A stretch of 64,000 nucleotides of DNA from a phage (PZ445487.1), one strand, 5' to 3'. Counted from the first letter of the stretch, positions 1 to 14,173 are shown. Numbers and translations: made by a program. Notes: generated by a model from the sequence alone, not told the origin.

Positions 1-2211
1 ATGGCGTATCAGAAGCGTGATATAGAATATGCCCCAATTAAAACGGGGTTCAAAATAGACGATGTGAAATTGCGTATGGACCAAACGTTCATGCGCAAAC
101 CTTCTGTGCGTGCTCCTCGAGTCGAGTTAATGCTGACAGATGAACAAGAAGACGAATTCGTTGAATGTTCTATGGATGCACACTACTTCGCCGCCAACTA
201 TTACAAGATAACCACGATCGATAAGGGCTTTATCCTTTTCGATATGCATGATTATCAGAAGCAGTTGTTCCACGACTTTCAGGACTATCGATTTAATGCG
301 GTCGTCCAGGCTCGTCAGTCCGGAAAATGTGTAAAAGGCGACACGCTTGTCACAGTTTACGATACTCTCAGCCAAGAGGAGTTGCTCCTGACTATAGGGG
401 AGCTTCACAGCCGCTTCGAGGACGTCAACCACGCTGTGCCGCTGAATACCATTGGCAACCATGACAAGTTCGTGGACAGCCGCTTCGGCAAACGTTACTT
501 TGTACAATCCGATAGTGGCTGGGTTCCGGTTATCGCAGCGCATAAGACGAAGAAATATGCGGAATTCGTTATTGTCACCGTTACCGGAAGGCGAATTAAC
601 GTGGCCGATGAACATATGTTCTTCACTCCGGACATGAAGGAGATATTTGCCAAAGACCTGAATGCTGGGTCATACATCATGACGACAGAAGGTCCAGAAG
701 AAATCCGTGAGATTTGGCAGACTGGTGAATATCACCATATGTACGATCTTCAGGTCAAATCTAGTGATCAACGTTATTACACGAATGGCTTTCTCAGTCA
801 TAACACGACCGTGGTGGCGGCGTTTCTTCTTTGGTATGCGATGTTCCATTCTGATAAGGAAATCGCAGTACTGGCAAACAAAGAGAAACAAGCGATAGAA
901 ATTCTTGACCGTATCAGAAAAGCATACCAAGACCTTCCATTCTTCCTTCAGCAGGGTTGTGAGAAGTTTGGTTCTACCCTGATAGAGTTTGAGAATGGTT
1001 CTAAGATATACGCTTATGCCACGTCTTCGGACTCCATCCGTGGTCGTTCTGTATCGCTCTTGTACGTTGACGAAGTCGCGTTTATCGAAAACGACTTTGA
1101 ATTTTGGGAATCAACTTTCCCAGCCATTGCATCTGCCGATACATCACGCTGTATTTTGACAAGTACTCCGAAAGGCCAGCGAGGGTTGTTCTATGATATT
1201 GTCACCAAAGCAGATCCGCGCCATCCACAATACAACGACTTCCACCTAACTGAAGTCCCATGGTATAAGGTTCCGGCATATACCAAAGATCCAGATTGGG
1301 AAACCAAACAACGTGCCCGTCTGGGGGATGCTCGTTTCGATCAAGAATTTGGCATTAAGTTCCGTGGTTCCGTGGGTTCATTGATTCCGGCCAAATGCTT
1401 AGATAAAATGACGTCCAAGTTGTATCGGGAACCTAATGAATTCACCAAGATTTATAAGGAATACGACCCACAACGTCTCTACTTTGGGATTGCGGACACT
1501 GGGAAGGGGGTGGAAGGAGATTATTCCGTCTTAACAATTCTGGATATAACTGAATATCCGCATGTTATAGCAGCCAAGTACAGGAATAACACGATACCTC
1601 CTATGATGTATGCATACACGATAGCTGATATGTGCACCGAATACGGGGAATGCCCTGTCCTTGTTGAAACAAACAACGACGTCGGCGGTCAGGTTATTAC
1701 AATTCTTTATCAAGAGATAGAATATCCAGAAATCATATTCACATCAACAGATAACAAAGGGACGGGGAAACGGATTGGTGGACGTAAACCGGAACCTGGT
1801 ATCAATACCAACAGAAAAGTCCGATCTATCGGTTGTGCTAACCTGAAAGCGCTCATTGAGAAAGAAATGTTGGTGATAGAAGACCAGGACACGATAGATG
1901 AACTCAGTACATTTGTGTTCAAAGGCGCTCGGTATGAAGCCGATGACGGTTGTCACGATGACTGTGTCATGCCGTTGGTCTTATATTCATGGGCGGTAAA
2001 ACAAGAATGGTTCAGTGACTTGACATCTACAAGTATTTCTCAGGACATGAGAAACCGAATGTCTTCAACTGAATCCCAGCAGGTATTCCCATTTGGCGGT
2101 TTAGTCGTTGGAGACACCCCATCCGAAACTGAGCATTTGCCTGGTTTCGGGGGTATTCAAGTTTTCAACGAAATGTCAGGGATGACCATGGATGAGTGGT
2201 TTAAGAATTGA
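1..2211 (+). CDS. 17: Terminase large subunit (T4 gp17-like), interrupted by an in-frame mini-intein
   Basis: Flanks of the insertion rejoin to a P-loop ARQSGK|TTVVAAFLL matching the T4 gp17 Walker A (SRQLGKTTVVA); Walker B-like LLYVDEVAF follows. ORF begins at window position 1, so the N-terminus may be cut by the window edge. Confidence 0.85.
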   Translation: MAYQKRDIEYAPIKTGFKIDDVKLRMDQTFMRKPSVRAPRVELMLTDEQEDEFVECSMDAHYFAANYYKITTIDKGFILFDMHDYQKQLFHDFQDYRFNAVVQARQSGKCVKGDTLVTVYDTLSQEELLLTIGELHSRFEDVNHAVPLNTIGNHDKFVDSRFGKRYFVQSDSGWVPVIAAHKTKKYAEFVIVTVTGRRINVADEHMFFTPDMKEIFAKDLNAGSYIMTTEGPEEIREIWQTGEYHHMYDLQVKSSDQRYYTNGFLSHNTTVVAAFLLWYAMFHSDKEIAVLANKEKQAIEILDRIRKAYQDLPFFLQQGCEKFGSTLIEFENGSKIYAYATSSDSIRGRSVSLLYVDEVAFIENDFEFWESTFPAIASADTSRCILTSTPKGQRGLFYDIVTKADPRHPQYNDFHLTEVPWYKVPAYTKDPDWETKQRARLGDARFDQEFGIKFRGSVGSLIPAKCLDKMTSKLYREPNEFTKIYKEYDPQRLYFGIADTGKGVEGDYSVLTILDITEYPHVIAAKYRNNTIPPMMYAYTIADMCTEYGECPVLVETNNDVGGQVITILYQEIEYPEIIFTSTDNKGTGKRIGGRKPEPGINTNRKVRSIGCANLKALIEKEMLVIEDQDTIDELSTFVFKGARYEADDGCHDDCVMPLVLYSWAVKQEWFSDLTSTSISQDMRNRMSSTESQQVFPFGGLVVGDTPSETEHLPGFGGIQVFNEMSGMTMDEWFKN
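328..804 (+). mobile_element. Mini-intein (159 aa) in the terminase Walker A P-loop
   Basis: Insert starts with Cys (CVKGDTLV), ends with SHN and is followed by Thr as +1 extein residue; about 160 aa with no room for a homing endonuclease domain. Confidence 0.7.
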
Positions 2212-2214
2212 TCA

Positions 2215-2221
2215 CTAAATA
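2215..2221 (+). promoter_or_regulatory. Late-promoter-like CTAAATA motif upstream of gene 18
   Basis: cactaaatatc about 40 nt upstream of the gp18 ATG; resembles the T4 late promoter TATAAATA with C at the first position. Confidence 0.3.
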
Positions 2222-2263
2222 TCTTTCAAATTGAGCGAAACTCTACCGAGAAGGAATGATATT

Positions 2264-4159
2264 ATGGCAACTCAAAGCTTCAGCGTTGCGCCGTCCGTTC
2301 AGTGGACTGAGCGTGATGCCACGCTTCAGACGTCCCCGTCCGTTGTTGTTCAGGGCGCGACCGTCGGCAAATTTCAATGGGGTGAAGTTGAACTTCCAGT
2401 GCTGGTGACTGGTGGTGAGACAGGTTTGGTGAAGAAATTCTTCAAACCCAACGACAGTACTGCGACCGATTTTCTCGTAATCGCGGACTTTTTGTCTTAC
2501 AGCTCTATGGCATGGGTGACCCGTGTTGTTGGTCCTCTGGCCAAGAACTCTGTTACCAAAGGTCAGACAGCGATTGCGATCAAAAACAAACTGGATTTTG
2601 AAACAGCAAGTCCTTCGGCGTCCATCACTTGGACTGGTCGTTATCCAGGTTCCCTGGGTAATGATATTGCTATCAATGTTTGTGATGCTGCTGGATTCTC
2701 AACTTGGGAATTCCGTAATAACTTTGCATACGCACCTCAGTCTGGTGAATTCCATGTAGTTGTCGTAGACAAAGTTGGTCGCATTACCGACTCTGCTGGC
2801 GCGGTCGGTCAGGTTGACCGTATCTCCGTTTCTGGTACGGCTACTGCTGCTGGCACCATCAGTGTGGCAGGTGAAGATATCGCATATCTGGATACTGATA
2901 CTCCAGCCGATTTGGCAACCAAAATCGGTACAGCACTAACTTCCCTGACAAGTGTTTATTCTTCTGTTGTCGTGAAGTCCAACACTGTCATCGTGACCCA
3001 TAAAGCTATTGGTCCCCAGACAGTTACTGCTATTGTTCCAGATGATAAGGGGCTGACTGCAACCGCCGTGATTACCACTGTTGGCGCATCTGGTTCTATT
3101 ATCGAAAAATACGAACTCATGCAGAACACACAGGGTTCCAAAAAGTCCGATGGCGCGAATGCGTACTTCAAAGATGTCATCAATGATACATCAAATTGGG
3201 TGTACACCTTCGCTACCGCTCTGGCCGCAGGTGTTGTTGAATTAGAAGGCGGCGTAGACGATTATAACATCAACCGCGTGGCAGCTATCCAAGTCTTGAA
3301 CAATGCTGAAGCATATGATGCGAAGCCAGTATTTGCGTACTGTGAAGAACTGATTGAGCAACAAGCATTGATCGACTTATCTACTGAGCGAAAAGATACG
3401 GTATCTTTCGTATCCCCGCTCCGTGATACGGTTGTTGGCAACCGTGGTCGTGAAATGGATGATGTCGTTGCTTGGCGTGAAAGCCTTGTTCGCGACTCTT
3501 CTTATTTCTTCATGGATGATAACTGGGCATATGTGTACGACAAGTACAACGACAAAATGCGTTGGATTCCGGCTTGTGGTGGCACCGCAGGTGTTTGGGC
3601 GCGAAGCATTGAAATCGCGGGTATCTACAAATCTCCGGCGTTCCACAACCGTGGTAAATACAACAACTATAATCGAATGGCGTGGTCTGCGTCTTCTGAT
3701 GAACGTGCTGTGTTGTACCGCAATCAGATCAACAGCATCGTAACCTTCTCCAATGAAGGCATCGTCCTGTATGGTGACAAAACTGGCCTGACCCGCCCGT
3801 CGGCGTTTGACCGCATCAACGTTCGTGGTCTGTTCATCATGGCTGAGCAGAACATCGCCGCAATCGCCAAATACTATCTTGGTGAGAACAATGACGCGTT
3901 TACACGTGGTCTGTTCAGCAATGCGGTTCGTCCATATATCCGCCAGCTGGCAAATATGGGCGCGATTTACGATGGTAAAGTCAAATGTGATGAAGACAAC
4001 AACACTGCTGATGTCATTGCGGCAAACCAAATGGTTGCAGGCATTTGGTTGAAGCCTGAGTACAGCATTAATTGGGTCTACTTAGATTTTGCTGCAGTTC
4101 GACCAGATATGGAGTTCAGCGAAATCGAATCCGGTGGCGGCATCGTTGCTGCTTCATAA
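2264..4159 (+). CDS. 18: Tail sheath protein (gp18-like)
   Basis: C-terminal half matches T4 gp18 as I recall it (YVYDKYNDKMRWIPA, PSAFDRINVRGLF). Start moved from track 2231 to ATG 2264, which has aaggaa 8 nt upstream. Confidence 0.9.
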   Translation: MATQSFSVAPSVQWTERDATLQTSPSVVVQGATVGKFQWGEVELPVLVTGGETGLVKKFFKPNDSTATDFLVIADFLSYSSMAWVTRVVGPLAKNSVTKGQTAIAIKNKLDFETASPSASITWTGRYPGSLGNDIAINVCDAAGFSTWEFRNNFAYAPQSGEFHVVVVDKVGRITDSAGAVGQVDRISVSGTATAAGTISVAGEDIAYLDTDTPADLATKIGTALTSLTSVYSSVVVKSNTVIVTHKAIGPQTVTAIVPDDKGLTATAVITTVGASGSIIEKYELMQNTQGSKKSDGANAYFKDVINDTSNWVYTFATALAAGVVELEGGVDDYNINRVAAIQVLNNAEAYDAKPVFAYCEELIEQQALIDLSTERKDTVSFVSPLRDTVVGNRGREMDDVVAWRESLVRDSSYFFMDDNWAYVYDKYNDKMRWIPACGGTAGVWARSIEIAGIYKSPAFHNRGKYNNYNRMAWSASSDERAVLYRNQINSIVTFSNEGIVLYGDKTGLTRPSAFDRINVRGLFIMAEQNIAAIAKYYLGENNDAFTRGLFSNAVRPYIRQLANMGAIYDGKVKCDEDNNTADVIAANQMVAGIWLKPEYSINWVYLDFAAVRPDMEFSEIESGGGIVAAS

Positions 4160-4167
4160 AAATGACC

Positions 4168-4191
4168 AACCCCGCTTCGGCGGGGTTTTCC
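4168..4191 (+). terminator. Rho-independent terminator after gene 18
   Basis: GC hairpin aaccccgc-ttcg-gcggggtt followed by a T-run. Confidence 0.6.
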
Positions 4192-4217
4192 TTTGTCTTA
4201 TTGATTTGAGTTATTGA

Positions 4218-4676
4218 ATGATATACGCATACAAAATTGAAACGATAACTAATGGAAAGGTCTACATCGGTGTGACCAATGACCCACAACGAAGATATGA
4301 TCAGCATTTTGCGAATGCTTTTCATCATGGAGTCCAAAGTGAATTGTATGATGCCATGCGTAAGTATGGAACATCTGGATTTACTTTCGTTGTAATTGCT
4401 CAGACCGATGAAGTCCATAAATGGGAATTAGAGAAGCAACTCATCGCTCAATATAATTCTTATGAGATGGGTTACAACATGAATAAAGGCGGTAATGATG
4501 GAAGTCATATGCTGGGTAAAACTGCAGCAAAATTGACATCTACAGGTGAACACATTGGTCTTGTTTCTCTCATAGACCCCCGTTGGGAATTGTGTGAAAT
4601 CGAACCCGTTTTAAGCAATGTTGACCACGGATTTGATTTTTCTTCCATGAAGATTAAAAGATTGACGACTAATTAG
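4218..4676 (+). CDS. GIY-YIG homing endonuclease-like protein (Seg-like), short form
   Basis: N-terminus IYAYKIETITNGKVYIGVTNDPQRRYDQH carries the GIY...YIG motif and conserved Arg; free-standing between gp18 and gp19. Only 152 aa, so the DNA-binding domain may be missing. Confidence 0.7.
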   Translation: MIYAYKIETITNGKVYIGVTNDPQRRYDQHFANAFHHGVQSELYDAMRKYGTSGFTFVVIAQTDEVHKWELEKQLIAQYNSYEMGYNMNKGGNDGSHMLGKTAAKLTSTGEHIGLVSLIDPRWELCEIEPVLSNVDHGFDFSSMKIKRLTTN

Positions 4677-4706
4677 AATTGTGTACTCTTATTTGGAGAT
4701 ATAAAA

Positions 4707-5240
4707 ATGGCGACAGTCAATGAGTTTCGCGCAGCCATGTCACGAGGGGGCGGCGTACAACGCCAACACCGCTGGCGTGTGACTGTAAACTTTCCTTCTT
4801 TTGTTGCTGGTTCCGACACAATTCGTGACGTGTCCTTGCTGGCTGTAACCACCAACACCCCAACAGGTCAGCTGGGTGAAATTCTGGTTCCTTGGGGTGG
4901 ACGTGAACTTCCGTTCCCAGGGGATCGTCGTTTCGAAGCGCTTCCTGTGACGTTCATTAACGTAGTGAACAACGCTCCATACAATGCTTTTGAAGTGTGG
5001 CAGCAATTCATCAACGGTAGTGAAAACAACCGCGCCAGCGCGAATCCAGATGATTATTTCCGTGATATCATCATGGAACTTCTGGACGCGAATGACAACG
5101 TGACTAAGACATGGACTTTACAGGGCGGCTGGCCTCAAAACCTCGGCCAACTGGAACTCGATATGTCGGCAATGGACTCTTACACACAGTTCACTGTCGA
5201 TTTGCGTTATTTCCAAGCCGTTTCTGACAAGTCATTGTAA
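4707..5240 (+). CDS. 19: Tail tube protein (gp19-like)
   Basis: 177 aa directly after the sheath gene; overall resemblance to T4 gp19, including the C-terminal TWTLQGGWPQNLGQLELD region. Confidence 0.8.
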   Translation: MATVNEFRAAMSRGGGVQRQHRWRVTVNFPSFVAGSDTIRDVSLLAVTTNTPTGQLGEILVPWGGRELPFPGDRRFEALPVTFINVVNNAPYNAFEVWQQFINGSENNRASANPDDYFRDIIMELLDANDNVTKTWTLQGGWPQNLGQLELDMSAMDSYTQFTVDLRYFQAVSDKSL

Positions 5241-13750: not shown

Positions 13751-14173
13751 ATGAAGAAGTATATCGTTCTTATAACGGGTTCCCGTTCTATAACTGAGCG
13801 GGATAAAATATTTGCCAAATTAGATGAACTCTTAATCCCTCACGAGATAGAGACGTTTATTGAAGGTGAAGCAGTAGGTGTGGATCTGATATCCCGTGAT
13901 TGGTGTGAAATCAATTATGTGTATATTACACCAATGCCGATTCCTCAAAATTACCATACGTTATATGGGAAAGGTGCGGGCAATCAACGTAACAAAGATA
14001 TGCTGGACAAGGCTCTAACATTGGCGAAGCAAAAAGATCTTGAGGTCTTTGGAATTGCATTATGGGATGGTTCGTCTACTGGGACGCAAGACATGATCAA
14101 GCGCATGAAGAAAGCGGGAATAAATGTCAATATCACTCTCATGGGCAAACCCAAAACCAAACGATTGTTATAA
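13751..14173 (+). CDS. Hypothetical protein, possibly SLOG/DUF2493-like Rossmann-fold protein
   Basis: IVLITGSRS...IEGEAVGVDLISRDWCE resembles the YspA/DUF2493 pattern (V-ITGG...GAD...WA) as I recall it; weak. Confidence 0.4.
   Translation: MKKYIVLITGSRSITERDKIFAKLDELLIPHEIETFIEGEAVGVDLISRDWCEINYVYITPMPIPQNYHTLYGKGAGNQRNKDMLDKALTLAKQKDLEVFGIALWDGSSTGTQDMIKRMKKAGINVNITLMGKPKTKRLL

What the first reader, a model, noticed from the sequence alone, without database searches (positions are those of the whole stretch)
4218..4676. Short GIY-YIG endonuclease gene wedged between tail sheath and tail tube genes
A free-standing GIY-YIG ORF sits between two terminators in the 18-19 intergenic space, a typical landing site for Seg-type homing endonucleases. 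At 152 aa it seems to have only the catalytic domain, so it may be a decaying homing endonuclease or a repurposed nuclease.
Basis: partly seen in the sequence, partly recalled or inferred. Interest (0 to 1): 0.45.

Follow-up and report, generated by a model that had tools for sequence, protein, structure and literature searches.

The report
Shortened but conserved GIY-YIG endonuclease gene
This is the already-annotated orf195 of E. coli phage CBA120: a small nuclease gene descended from a mobile "homing endonuclease" that has lost its DNA-targeting domain, yet selection has kept it intact in the same spot before the tail-tube gene in several related phage genera.

Summary
The window is phage CBA120 (Kuttervirus, Ackermannviridae), 100% identical. 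The ORF at 4218-4676 is orf195/CBA120_gp152. GenBank, RefSeq, PHROGs and the 2011 genome paper already call it a putative GIY-YIG homing endonuclease ("SegD homolog").

It is a real GIY-YIG gene between the sheath and tube genes. Only one terminator flanks it, upstream.

The protein does lack the C-terminal NUMOD3/HTH DNA-binding region. The 230-232 aa relatives at the same junction in other phages have that region. About 75 codons were lost by an internal deletion.

It is not decaying:
- The catalytic residues are invariant.
- dN/dS is about 0.08.
- Length stays at 151-157 aa in Kuttervirus, Taipeivirus, Miltonvirus and metagenomic lineages.
- Its divergence tracks the flanking structural genes (r = 0.94-0.97), which indicates vertical inheritance.

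It keeps one 29-aa "TGE-DPRW" module. The same module is repeated 3-7 times in other phage HNH and GIY-YIG endonucleases, so it is probably a DNA-contact element.

The junction itself is a hot spot. I found at least eight occupancy states and clear co-conversion tracts for the full-length genes.

Best reading: a sessile, domain-deleted homing-endonuclease derivative kept as a working small nuclease. Its role is unproven and it is dispensable. The gene is already known, so interest is modest.

The parts
2264..4159 (+). Tail sheath gene (gp18 homologue, orf197), the upstream flank
   Evidence: Pfam Phage_sheath_1C and phrog_23; RefSeq annotation
4168..4187 (+). Intrinsic terminator hairpin after the sheath gene (8-bp stem with 6 GC pairs, GNRA-like loop, U-rich tail). 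It is the only terminator next to the ORF.
   Evidence: Terminator scan; RNA fold. A hairpin of the same kind is present in all relatives, including those with an empty site.
4218..4676 (+). orf195 / CBA120_gp152: 152-aa short-form GIY-YIG nuclease (stop codon TAG at 4674-4676)
   Evidence: named in PMC3184105
4218..4493 (+). GIY-YIG catalytic domain, aa 1-92. Y5, Y16, G18, R26, H30, E72 and N87 are all present.
   Evidence: These columns are invariant in 108 family members. pLDDT is above 90. The fold matches the I-TevI catalytic domain.
4515..4601 (+). 29-aa 'TGE-DPRW' module, aa 100-128 (GKTAAKLTSTGEHIGLVSLIDPRWELCEI): a beta-hairpin plus a third strand, inferred to contact DNA
   Evidence: It is the most conserved block of the short-form family. 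pLDDT is about 82. The same module occurs 3-7 times in tandem in other phage HNH and SegE-like endonucleases. It has no Pfam or PDB match.
4602..4673 (+). C-terminal tail, aa 129-152. It contains the scar of an internal deletion of about 225-234 nt (about aa 134-138) that removed the NUMOD3/HTH region, followed by a remnant of the ancestral C-terminus (...KRLTTN against ...ARLNTTGWQLIRIV).
   Evidence: Protein alignment with the full-length paralogues; a single ~225-nt indel in the 4600-4699 bin against Menlow; DNA comparison of the 3' ends; the tail is predicted to be disordered.
4669..4676 (+). CTAATTAG, a one-base variant of the CTAAATAG motif that lies about 30-40 nt upstream of the tube gene in every relative, including empty sites. 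It is a candidate late promoter of the tube gene, and the ORF's stop codon overlaps it.
   Evidence: Alignment of tube leaders. CTAAATA occurs 8 times in the window, always on the + strand, and 5 of the 8 lie about 30-50 nt upstream of a gene's ATG. The promoter function is inferred, not shown.
4707..5240 (+). Tail tube gene (gp19 homologue, orf194), the downstream flank
   Evidence: phrog_45 and Pfam Phage_T4_gp19; RefSeq annotation

Best explanation
orf195 descends from a free-standing Seg/I-TevI-type GIY-YIG homing endonuclease that once invaded the spacer between the sheath terminator and the tube gene's promoter. An internal deletion of about 75 codons removed the NUMOD3/helix-turn-helix DNA-binding region. 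What remains is the catalytic domain, one 29-aa TGE-DPRW module and a short tail.

This short form no longer behaves as a mobile element. It has been inherited vertically with the sheath and tube genes since before Kuttervirus, Taipeivirus and Miltonvirus diverged.

It is nevertheless kept as a working protein under purifying selection with an intact active site. It most likely still cuts or nicks DNA, with reduced specificity supplied by the catalytic domain plus the single module. It is probably made at a low level by read-through of the sheath terminator late in infection. It gives the phage a non-essential advantage, most plausibly in competition or recombination with co-infecting relatives.

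Shown here: identity, domain loss, conservation, vertical inheritance, and mobility of the full-length neighbours.
Inferred: nuclease activity, DNA contact by the module, the mode of expression, and the nature of the benefit.
For: Identity: 100% match to CBA120 orf195. GIY-YIG profile hits. The fold matches I-TevI.

Domain loss:
- Menlow's 230-aa protein is 57% identical over aa 4-132 (E=7e-51). It then continues into a NUMOD3-like helix and an HTH-like region that the 152-aa protein lacks.
- Menlow matches TIGR01453 over 5-203/215, whereas orf195 matches only 5-93/215.
- The two differ by a single ~225-nt indel.
- The 3' ends are homologous.

Selection:
- Omega is 0.08 (CBA120 against KP6F1), 0.07 (against KpS110) and 0.085 (L013 against Kevin, dS=0.60). 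This is comparable to the sheath gene at 0.045-0.053.
- Y5, Y16, G18, R26, H30, E72 and N87 are invariant.
- Length is 151-157 aa down to 53% identity, and the gene always sits directly upstream of the tube gene.

Vertical inheritance:
- Pairwise identity of the short form correlates with that of the sheath (r=0.97) and tube (r=0.94) genes.
- Its dS equals that of the flanks.
- Identity against KP6F1 is uniform across the locus.
- It keeps the native tube leader seen at empty sites.

Contrast with mobile neighbours:
- The extra reverse-strand 262-aa gene in bering comes with a ~1-kb divergent tract in the sheath 3' end (80-93% against 98-100% elsewhere).
- allotria and SilasIsHot show ~200-bp tracts.
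- allotria (Kuttervirus) and Menlow (Taipeivirus) share a foreign tube leader and second codon.

The module as a DNA-contact element: it is tandemly repeated 3-7 times C-terminal to unrelated nuclease domains (HNH in P0045, SegE-like in P0011, P0013 and P0055).

Recurrence: two independent clean deletions of the same region occurred in Menlow-type genes (141 aa in L017, 139 aa in L018).
Against: - No biochemical or genetic data exist for this protein or any member of its family, so nuclease activity and any benefit are inferred.
- For I-TevI (from my own knowledge) the catalytic domain needs tethering by its DNA-binding domain to cleave efficiently. A form without that domain might therefore be nearly inactive as a nuclease and be conserved for some other reason.
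- The gene is dispensable. Viable Kuttervirus isolates lack it (SilasIsHot, allotria, Mutine-type L025/L030), and whole genera have an empty site.
- A terminator lies directly upstream and no recognisable promoter was found in CBA120, so expression is unproven.
- dS is saturated for the deepest comparisons, so those omega values are rough.
- The records in the phage collection are redundant (GenBank plus RefSeq copies).
Confidence: 0.6

Rival explanations
1. It is still an autonomous, mobile homing endonuclease. The catalytic domain plus the single TGE-DPRW module and tail give enough site specificity to cut relatives that lack it. It would then spread by double-strand-break repair, as T4 SegA-G do.
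For: The active site is intact and under purifying selection. The gene shows presence/absence polymorphism across the family. It sits free-standing next to highly conserved genes, as Seg genes do (PMC2988022). The retained module looks like a DNA-binding element.
Against: Its divergence tracks the flanks (r=0.94-0.97, same dS), with no co-conversion tract or foreign leader around it. That is unlike the full-length genes at the same site. It lacks the domain that confers specificity in every characterised family member. Within Kuttervirus it is the gene that gets displaced by the full-length genes; I found no case of it displacing them.
Confidence: 0.2
2. It is a decaying relic of a homing endonuclease: a pseudogene in the making with no protein function.
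For: It has lost about one third of the ancestral protein, including the DNA-binding region. Truncated endonuclease genes are common decay products in T4-type phages (my own knowledge, e.g. the T4 I-TevIII remnant). The gene is dispensable in some isolates.
Against: Omega is about 0.08 in several independent pairs. There are no frameshifts or stops in lineages down to 53% identity. Catalytic residues are invariant and the module is the most conserved block.
Confidence: 0.04
3. The DNA, not the protein, is what is kept. The ORF persists because it carries signals needed by the essential tube gene, such as a promoter, a leader or a terminator spacing, so any deletion of it is harmful.
For: The ORF's last codons and stop overlap the CTAA(A/T)TAG motif that precedes the tube gene in all relatives. 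Embedded promoters are a documented reason why T4 keeps endonuclease genes (PMC2988022).
Against: This explains only the last ~10 nt. Synonymous sites across the ORF are as diverged as in the flanks, while non-synonymous sites are not. The sigma70-like site inside the ORF (4429-4457) is not conserved outside Kuttervirus and Taipeivirus. Empty-site phages express the tube gene with a 77-78 nt spacer.
Confidence: 0.06
4. It has been repurposed as a general DNA-degrading or nicking enzyme that acts on unmodified DNA from the host or from competing phages. It would be analogous to the small GIY-YIG endonuclease II (DenA) of T4. The phage's own hypermodified thymidines would protect its genome.
For: It is a small GIY-YIG protein without a specificity domain, and it is under selection. 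ViI-type phages carry hypermodified thymidine (my own knowledge; not tested here).
Against: It is most like I-TevI and homing-type enzymes. T4 endonuclease II is not among the top 50 PDB fold matches. It lies in a late structural operon behind a terminator, not among early genes. It is dispensable and sometimes replaced by site-specific full-length genes.
Confidence: 0.1

Closest known systems
Full-length GIY-YIG genes at the same sheath-tube junction (Klebsiella phage Menlow CPT_Menlow_063, 230 aa; also in Salmonella phage BRM 13314, P0162)
   Same: Same locus, same orientation and same 3' overlap with the tube promoter-like motif. 57% identical over aa 4-132, including the catalytic domain and the TGE-DPRW module.
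   Different: Menlow-type proteins carry about 78 more residues: a NUMOD3-like helix plus an HTH-like C-terminal region. They arrive with a foreign tube leader, which indicates recent transfer.
I-TevI (phage T4 td intron endonuclease), catalytic domain, PDB 1mk0/1ln0
   Same: Same fold (TM 0.82-0.84, rmsd 1.8-1.9 A, 25-26% identity). The same catalytic Tyr, Tyr, Arg, His, Glu and Asn residues align.
   Different: I-TevI is intron-encoded, has 245 aa, and has a long linker, a zinc finger and an HTH that tether it to its site (my own knowledge). orf195 is free-standing and has none of these. No group I intron is present here.
T4 SegD, the name used in the GenBank record, and the T4 Seg family in general
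   Same: Free-standing GIY-YIG genes lodged between conserved structural genes of a T4-related myovirus (PMC2988022). Full-length Menlow aligns with SegD end to end at 22% identity.
   Different: orf195 matches SegD only over 69 residues at 28% identity (pairwise E=5e-4), and matches SegE slightly better. SegD lies between genes 23 and 24 on the opposite strand and has 223 aa with a C-terminal domain. So 'SegD' is a family-level label and does not indicate orthology.
Truncated homing-endonuclease remnants in T-even phages (e.g. the shortened I-TevIII ORF of T4 against the full-length one in RB3; my own knowledge)
   Same: A homing-endonuclease gene shortened by deletion that stays at its original site.
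   Different: Those remnants are regarded as inactive decay products. orf195 keeps the catalytic half and shows omega of about 0.08 across genera.
Domesticated HEG-derived nucleases of phages (e.g. ICP1 Odn; HNH proteins that assist terminases), as discussed in PMC10448857
   Same: A nuclease domain of homing-endonuclease origin kept by the phage for its own benefit.
   Different: In those cases the nuclease domain gained or kept a targeting domain and the function is known. Here the targeting domain was lost and the function is unknown.

Membership tests
GIY-YIG nuclease superfamily (Pfam PF01541) | Profile match above the curated threshold | tested here: met
   44.1 bits against a cut-off of 22.6, E=2.5e-11, aa 2-87
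GIY-YIG nuclease superfamily (Pfam PF01541) | Catalytic residues present: Tyr of 'GIY', Tyr/Gly of 'YIG', then Arg, His, Glu and Asn | tested here: met
   Y5, Y16, G18, R26, H30, E72 and N87 align with I-TevI Y6, Y17, G19, R27, H31, E75 and N90. They are invariant in 108 relatives.
GIY-YIG nuclease superfamily (Pfam PF01541) | Three-stranded sheet with flanking helices (the I-TevI/UvrC N-terminal fold) | tested here: met
   The model has pLDDT above 90 over aa 1-92. Best PDB matches are 1mk0/1ln0 (TM 0.82-0.84), then the UvrC N-terminal domain.
GIY-YIG nuclease superfamily (Pfam PF01541) | Nuclease activity | not testable with these tools
   Needs purified protein
Free-standing Seg-type GIY-YIG homing endonucleases (T4 SegA-G) | Own gene lodged between conserved phage genes, not inside an intron | tested here: met
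   It lies between the sheath and tube genes. No intron or RNA family is present.
Free-standing Seg-type GIY-YIG homing endonucleases (T4 SegA-G) | Two-part protein: N-terminal catalytic domain joined to a C-terminal DNA-binding domain (NUMOD3/HTH type) | tested here: not met
   There is no NUMOD or HTH hit. The alignment with 230-264 aa paralogues shows that the region is deleted. TIGR01453 is matched only over 5-93 of 215 positions, at 49 bits against a cut-off of 56.
Free-standing Seg-type GIY-YIG homing endonucleases (T4 SegA-G) | Sporadic distribution with signs of lateral spread (co-conversion of flanks, incongruent phylogeny) | tested here: not met
   Presence/absence polymorphism exists between genera. 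However, the short form's divergence tracks its flanks (r=0.94-0.97, equal dS) and no conversion tract surrounds it. The full-length genes at the same site do meet this feature.
Free-standing Seg-type GIY-YIG homing endonucleases (T4 SegA-G) | Site-specific cleavage of endonuclease-lacking relatives and biased inheritance in mixed infection | not testable with these tools
   Needs cleavage assays and phage crosses
Orthologue of T4 SegD (the record's label) | Full-length similarity and an equivalent genomic position | tested here: not met
   28% identity over 69 aa only. SegE scores better. SegD lies between genes 23 and 24 on the opposite strand.
PHROG 5123 ('homing endonuclease with GIY-YIG motif'), the short-form family | End-to-end profile match at the family's length | tested here: met
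   1-152 of 152 profile positions, E=4.9e-94. Members are 151-157 aa and always lie upstream of the tube gene.
T4 endonuclease II (DenA)-type small GIY-YIG host-DNA nucleases | Closest structural or sequence relationship to EndoII | tested here: not met
   No EndoII chain is among the top 50 PDB fold matches. The I-TevI type is clearly closest.

The most novel reading that the evidence does not exclude
The short form is a domesticated minimal nuclease rather than a selfish element. After losing its targeting domain it was kept for tens of percent of sequence divergence because a low-specificity GIY-YIG cutter benefits the phage. The benefit could be attack on unmodified host or competitor DNA while the phage's own hypermodified DNA is spared, or provision of breaks for recombination-dependent replication. 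Its 29-aa TGE-DPRW unit would be a previously undescribed portable DNA-binding repeat, shared by GIY-YIG and HNH homing endonucleases.
Probability: 0.25. Interest if true: 0.55.

Novelty: already known. Interest (0 to 1): 0.28.

Why it matters
The gene itself adds nothing new. It has been listed as one of CBA120's two putative homing endonucleases since 2011.

The modest value lies in the pattern around it. One phage junction shows the whole life cycle of homing-endonuclease genes side by side:
- empty sites;
- fresh invasions with co-converted flanks;
- tandem occupants;
- replacements;
- deletion derivatives.

Against the usual expectation that a fixed, immobile endonuclease gene decays, one derivative without its targeting domain has been kept under purifying selection across at least three genera. 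That makes it a convenient test case for whether, and how, phages domesticate the catalytic half of a selfish nuclease.

The analysis also flags a small repeat module, apparently unannotated, that may be a DNA-binding unit of phage endonucleases.

For phage-therapy genomics (Kuttervirus and Taipeivirus are widely used), it shows that variation at this locus is endonuclease traffic. It does not reflect differences in the structural genes.

Tried and rejected
1. T4-type late promoter TATAAATA near the ORF: there is one match in the whole window, at 14169, and none near the ORF.
2. Translational control by an RNA hairpin over the ribosome-binding site. In CBA120 the start region is predicted to be paired (P unpaired 0.26). 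The structures in KP6F1, Kevin-like and metagenomic relatives differ and are weaker, so this is not conserved and is inconclusive.
3. A sigma70-like promoter inside the ORF (4429-4457, 10/12 match). The -10 element is lost in all lineages outside Kuttervirus and Taipeivirus, so it is not a conserved embedded promoter.
4. A 19-nt inverted repeat between the sheath 3' end (4086-4104) and the ORF (4515-4533), 17/19 complementary. Complementarity falls to 12/19 in Taipeivirus and 7-10/19 elsewhere, so it is a chance match around a PstI-like GCTGCAG.
5. Group I intron or other RNA family. Only sub-threshold hits to the terminator hairpin.
6. First structure prediction with 9 sequences: pLDDT 59, not usable. 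It was replaced by the 108-sequence run.
7. Orthology with T4 SegD: rejected.
8. Looking for a solved structure or Pfam family for the TGE-DPRW module: none found. There is only a weak, sub-threshold resemblance to the PRC-barrel-like YlmC/YmxH model.
9. Literature search for expression data on Kuttervirus, or any study of this gene beyond annotation: nothing found.
10. The opposite-strand ORFs over the region (4116-4418, 4249-4374, 4428-4553 and 4505-4648, all on the - strand) lie inside or across the GIY-YIG ORF, and none is annotated in the RefSeq record. I did not run them against any profile library and set them aside as by-products of the coding strand.

Full report
**Identity of the window and of the ORF**

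The 1.6 kb around the finding is 100% identical to Escherichia phage CBA120 (JN593240 / NC_016570; Kuttervirus, Ackermannviridae), read on the reverse strand. The ORF at 4218-4676 (+) is orf195 = CBA120_gp152 = YP_004957854.1. GenBank calls it 'putative homing endonuclease SegD' and RefSeq calls it 'homing endonuclease with GIY-YIG motif'. [quoted passage not shown] The feature is therefore already on record.

**Check of the observation**

- The ORF has 152 codons and starts at an ATG.
- It matches Pfam GIY-YIG above threshold (E=2.5e-11, aa 2-87) and PHROG 5123 over its whole length (1-152/152, E=4.9e-94).
- Upstream is the sheath gene (2264-4159) and downstream is the tube gene (4707-5240).
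- A strong terminator hairpin lies at 4168-4187.
- The 30 nt between the ORF and the tube gene contain no terminator. 'Between two terminators' is therefore wrong by one.
- No intron or other RNA family is present.

**What the protein is**

An AlphaFold model built on 108 relatives has mean pLDDT 82, and above 90 over residues 1-92. Its best PDB matches are the I-TevI catalytic domain (1mk0/1ln0, TM 0.82-0.84, rmsd 1.8-1.9 A), followed by the UvrC N-terminal domain.

The residues that align with the I-TevI catalytic set are Y5, Y16, G18, R26, H30, E72 and N87. All are invariant in the 108-sequence alignment.

After a low-confidence loop, residues 100-130 form a beta-hairpin plus a third strand (pLDDT about 82). 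Residues 133-152 are predicted to be disordered.

**What is missing**

The same junction in other Ackermannviridae holds full-length GIY-YIG genes:
- Menlow, 230 aa;
- allotria, 232 aa;
- Coodle, 231 aa;
- KpS110, 240 aa;
- reverse-strand genes of 262-264 aa in bering and SilasIsHot.

Menlow's protein is 57% identical to orf195 over residues 4-132 (E=7e-51). It then continues into a NUMOD3-like helix and an HTH-like region ending ...ARLNTTGWQLIRIV. It matches the group-I-intron-endonuclease model TIGR01453 over 5-203/215, whereas orf195 matches only 5-93/215 and falls below the cut-off.

The multiple alignment places the last ~15 residues of orf195 (GFDFSSMKIKRLTTN) against the end of the long proteins. 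The DNA shows the same: agattgacgac...taattag against agattgaatac...ctaattag. The difference from Menlow is one block of about 225 nt.

The broad family has the long architecture. That includes T4 SegD, which aligns with Menlow end to end. I therefore conclude that the short form arose by an internal deletion of the DNA-binding region.

Two further, independent clean deletions of the same region exist in Menlow-type genes from metagenomes: 141 aa in L017, which keeps a remnant of the C-terminal codons, and 139 aa in L018.

**The retained module**

A full HMMER scan of 1.84 billion representative proteins gave 13,542 hits at E<=0.001, but only 2 at E<=1e-30. Several hits matched residues ~95-138 repeatedly.

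Those proteins carry 3-7 tandem copies of a 29-aa unit, G-x-x-A-A-x4-TGE-x-(L/I)G-x-V-x3-DPRW-x-TGEI. The copies lie behind an HNH domain (P0045) or a SegE-like GIY-YIG domain (P0011, P0013, P0055, P0119).

orf195 has one copy (aa 100-128). It is the most conserved block of the short-form family, with 18 invariant positions (G100-E129) in nine sequences at 54-97% identity.

The unit has no Pfam family and no solved relative. Its position and repetition behind two unrelated nuclease folds suggest a DNA-contact module. That is an inference.

**Not decaying**

| Pair | Gene | dN/dS | dS |
|---|---|---|---|
| CBA120 vs Klebsiella phage KP6F1 | short form | 0.080 | 1.37 |
| CBA120 vs KP6F1 | sheath | 0.045 | 1.33 |
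| CBA120 vs KP6F1 | tube | 0.017 | 1.56 |
| L013 vs Serratia phage Kevin (unsaturated) | short form | 0.085 | 0.60 |
| L013 vs Kevin | sheath | 0.053 | 0.73 |
| L013 vs Kevin | tube | 0.020 | 0.49 |

Short forms of 151-157 aa occur in the following lineages, always immediately upstream of the tube gene:
- Kuttervirus;
- Taipeivirus;
- Miltonvirus (Kevin);
- four metagenomic lineages, down to 53% identity.

**Vertical, not mobile**

- Across 21 pairs of seven loci, identity of the short form correlates with that of the sheath (r=0.97) and tube (r=0.94) genes.
- Its dS equals that of the flanks.
- Identity to KP6F1 is flat across the locus.
- It keeps the same tube leader (TAGAATTGTGTAAC...TTGGAGAAT) that empty-site phages have.

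**The junction as a hot spot**

States seen:
- empty: EspM4VN, MK-13, Bue1 and Vibrio phage VP-1;
- short form alone;
- a full-length forward gene alone, of Menlow type or allotria type;
- a reverse 264-aa gene alone (SilasIsHot);
- a reverse 262-aa gene plus the short form (bering);
- a forward full-length gene plus the short form in tandem, with overlapping ATGA (KpS110, L013, L019, L026, L044);
- reverse Hef-like genes of ~600 aa (LIMEstone1 F-LimVIII, Mutine-type L025/L030; PMC3296691);
- unrelated cargo (L035).

Counts:
- Of 22 IMG/VR loci found with the tube protein, 12 carry the short form.
- In the phage collection, about 206 records hold a protein at least 60% identical to orf195.
- About 279 records hold a tube protein at least 80% identical. 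Records are redundant, so these numbers are rough.

The full-length genes show classic signs of homing:
- bering differs from CBA120 by 7-20% over the last ~1 kb of the sheath gene, next to the extra gene. It is 98-100% identical elsewhere, including the short form and the tube gene.
- allotria and SilasIsHot show ~200-bp tracts.
- allotria (Kuttervirus) and Menlow (Taipeivirus) share a foreign tube leader and second codon (caaNcatttaaagaggaattaatc-ATGAGT).

**Context signals**

Every relative has CTAA(A/T)TAG about 30-40 nt before the tube ATG, including the empty sites. In CBA120 this is CTAATTAG at 4669-4676, overlapping the ORF's stop codon. In the full-length genes the reading frame runs through it (L-I-R-I-V-stop).

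CTAAATA occurs eight times in the window, all on the + strand, and five of the eight lie about 30-50 nt before a gene's ATG (sheath at 2215; also 6998, 8216, 17552, 51029). This looks like the late promoter that the 2011 paper said had not been identified. That is an inference.

The endonuclease genes thus sit between the sheath terminator and the tube promoter. Expression of orf195 probably depends on terminator read-through.

**Comparison with known families**

orf195 is a member of the GIY-YIG superfamily by profile, catalytic residues and fold. It is of the I-TevI/Seg homing type, not the UvrC or EndoII type.

It fails the two-domain criterion of Seg/I-TevI enzymes, and it fails the lateral-spread criterion.

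It is not an orthologue of T4 SegD. The match is 28% over 69 aa, SegE scores better, and SegD sits at a different locus on the opposite strand.

**Verdict**

The gene and its family assignment are already known. What the record does not say is that:
- it is a domain-deleted, sessile derivative held under purifying selection;
- it retains a single copy of an apparently undescribed repeat module.

Its function is unproven. My best estimate is that it remains an active, low-specificity nuclease of non-essential benefit to the phage.

Noticed in passing
window 328-804 (aa 110-268 of the terminase large subunit gene, 1-2211): The terminase large subunit carries a 159-aa mini-intein-like insert inside the Walker A motif: QARQSGK | CVKGD...FLSHN | TTVVAAF. 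It has canonical Cys1 and His-Asn/Thr+1 boundaries and no endonuclease domain. The profile hits are sub-threshold (Pfam Intein_splicing 29.6 bits; TIGR01445 19.3 bits). The word 'intein' does not occur in the 2011 genome paper, and the RefSeq product name does not mention one.
   Followed up: partly
window 2215, 6998, 8216, 17552, 46836, 47423, 51029, 51625 (+); variant CTAATTA at 4669-4675: CTAAATA occurs 8 times, always on the + strand, and 5 of the 8 lie about 30-50 nt upstream of a gene's ATG. It is conserved before the tube gene in all relatives. It is a candidate late-promoter element of ViI-like phages, which the CBA120 paper says was unidentified. The total count is not above chance; the strand and the positions are what stand out.
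   Followed up: partly
window 4515-4601; proteins P0011, P0013, P0045, P0055, P0119: A 29-aa 'TGE-DPRW' unit is present once in orf195. It is repeated 3-7 times in tandem behind HNH or SegE-like GIY-YIG domains in other phage proteins. It has no Pfam family and no solved structure.
   Followed up: partly
L005 (Salmonella phage bering) against window 3200-4200: A ~1-kb tract of 80-93% identity in the 3' end of the sheath gene lies next to an extra reverse-strand 262-aa GIY-YIG gene. The rest of the locus is 98-100% identical. This looks like a textbook one-sided co-conversion tract.
   Followed up: yes
L003 2741-2770 (allotria) and L010 2721-2750 (Menlow): A Kuttervirus and a Taipeivirus that carry full-length junction genes share a near-identical foreign tube-gene leader and second codon (…aaagaggaattaatcATGAGT). 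The native version is …ttggagaat…ATGGC. This indicates that the cassette moved between genera together with a short piece of flank.
   Followed up: partly
L021 458-2248 (LIMEstone1) against L006 2044-2739 (Coodle): Two isolates of the same species (Limestonevirus limestone) carry different genes at the junction: a 596-aa reverse Hef-like gene (F-LimVIII) and a 231-aa forward GIY-YIG gene.
   Followed up: no
L002 2038-2108 (EspM4VN) and L007 2044-2118 (SKML-39): Likely start-site mis-annotations in public records. The EspM4VN tube gene is annotated from a GTG 70 nt downstream of the conserved ATGGCTACAG start. The SKML-39 junction gene is annotated from an internal Met, although the upstream 75 nt encode the GIY motif (MIGSVYKITNLVNQKAYIGITTRDP).
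   Followed up: no
L035 about 1750-3000 (IMG/VR UViG 3300045988_107072): One Taipeivirus-like metagenomic genome has a 1254-nt sheath-tube spacer with no GIY-YIG similarity at all. It contains a ~100-aa ORF (MKSFSQFLAEAGLKGD...) of unknown nature.
   Followed up: no
window 4086-4104 and 4515-4533: A 19-nt inverted repeat (17/19) lies between the sheath 3' end and the ORF. It is not conserved in relatives and is judged to be chance.
   Followed up: yes
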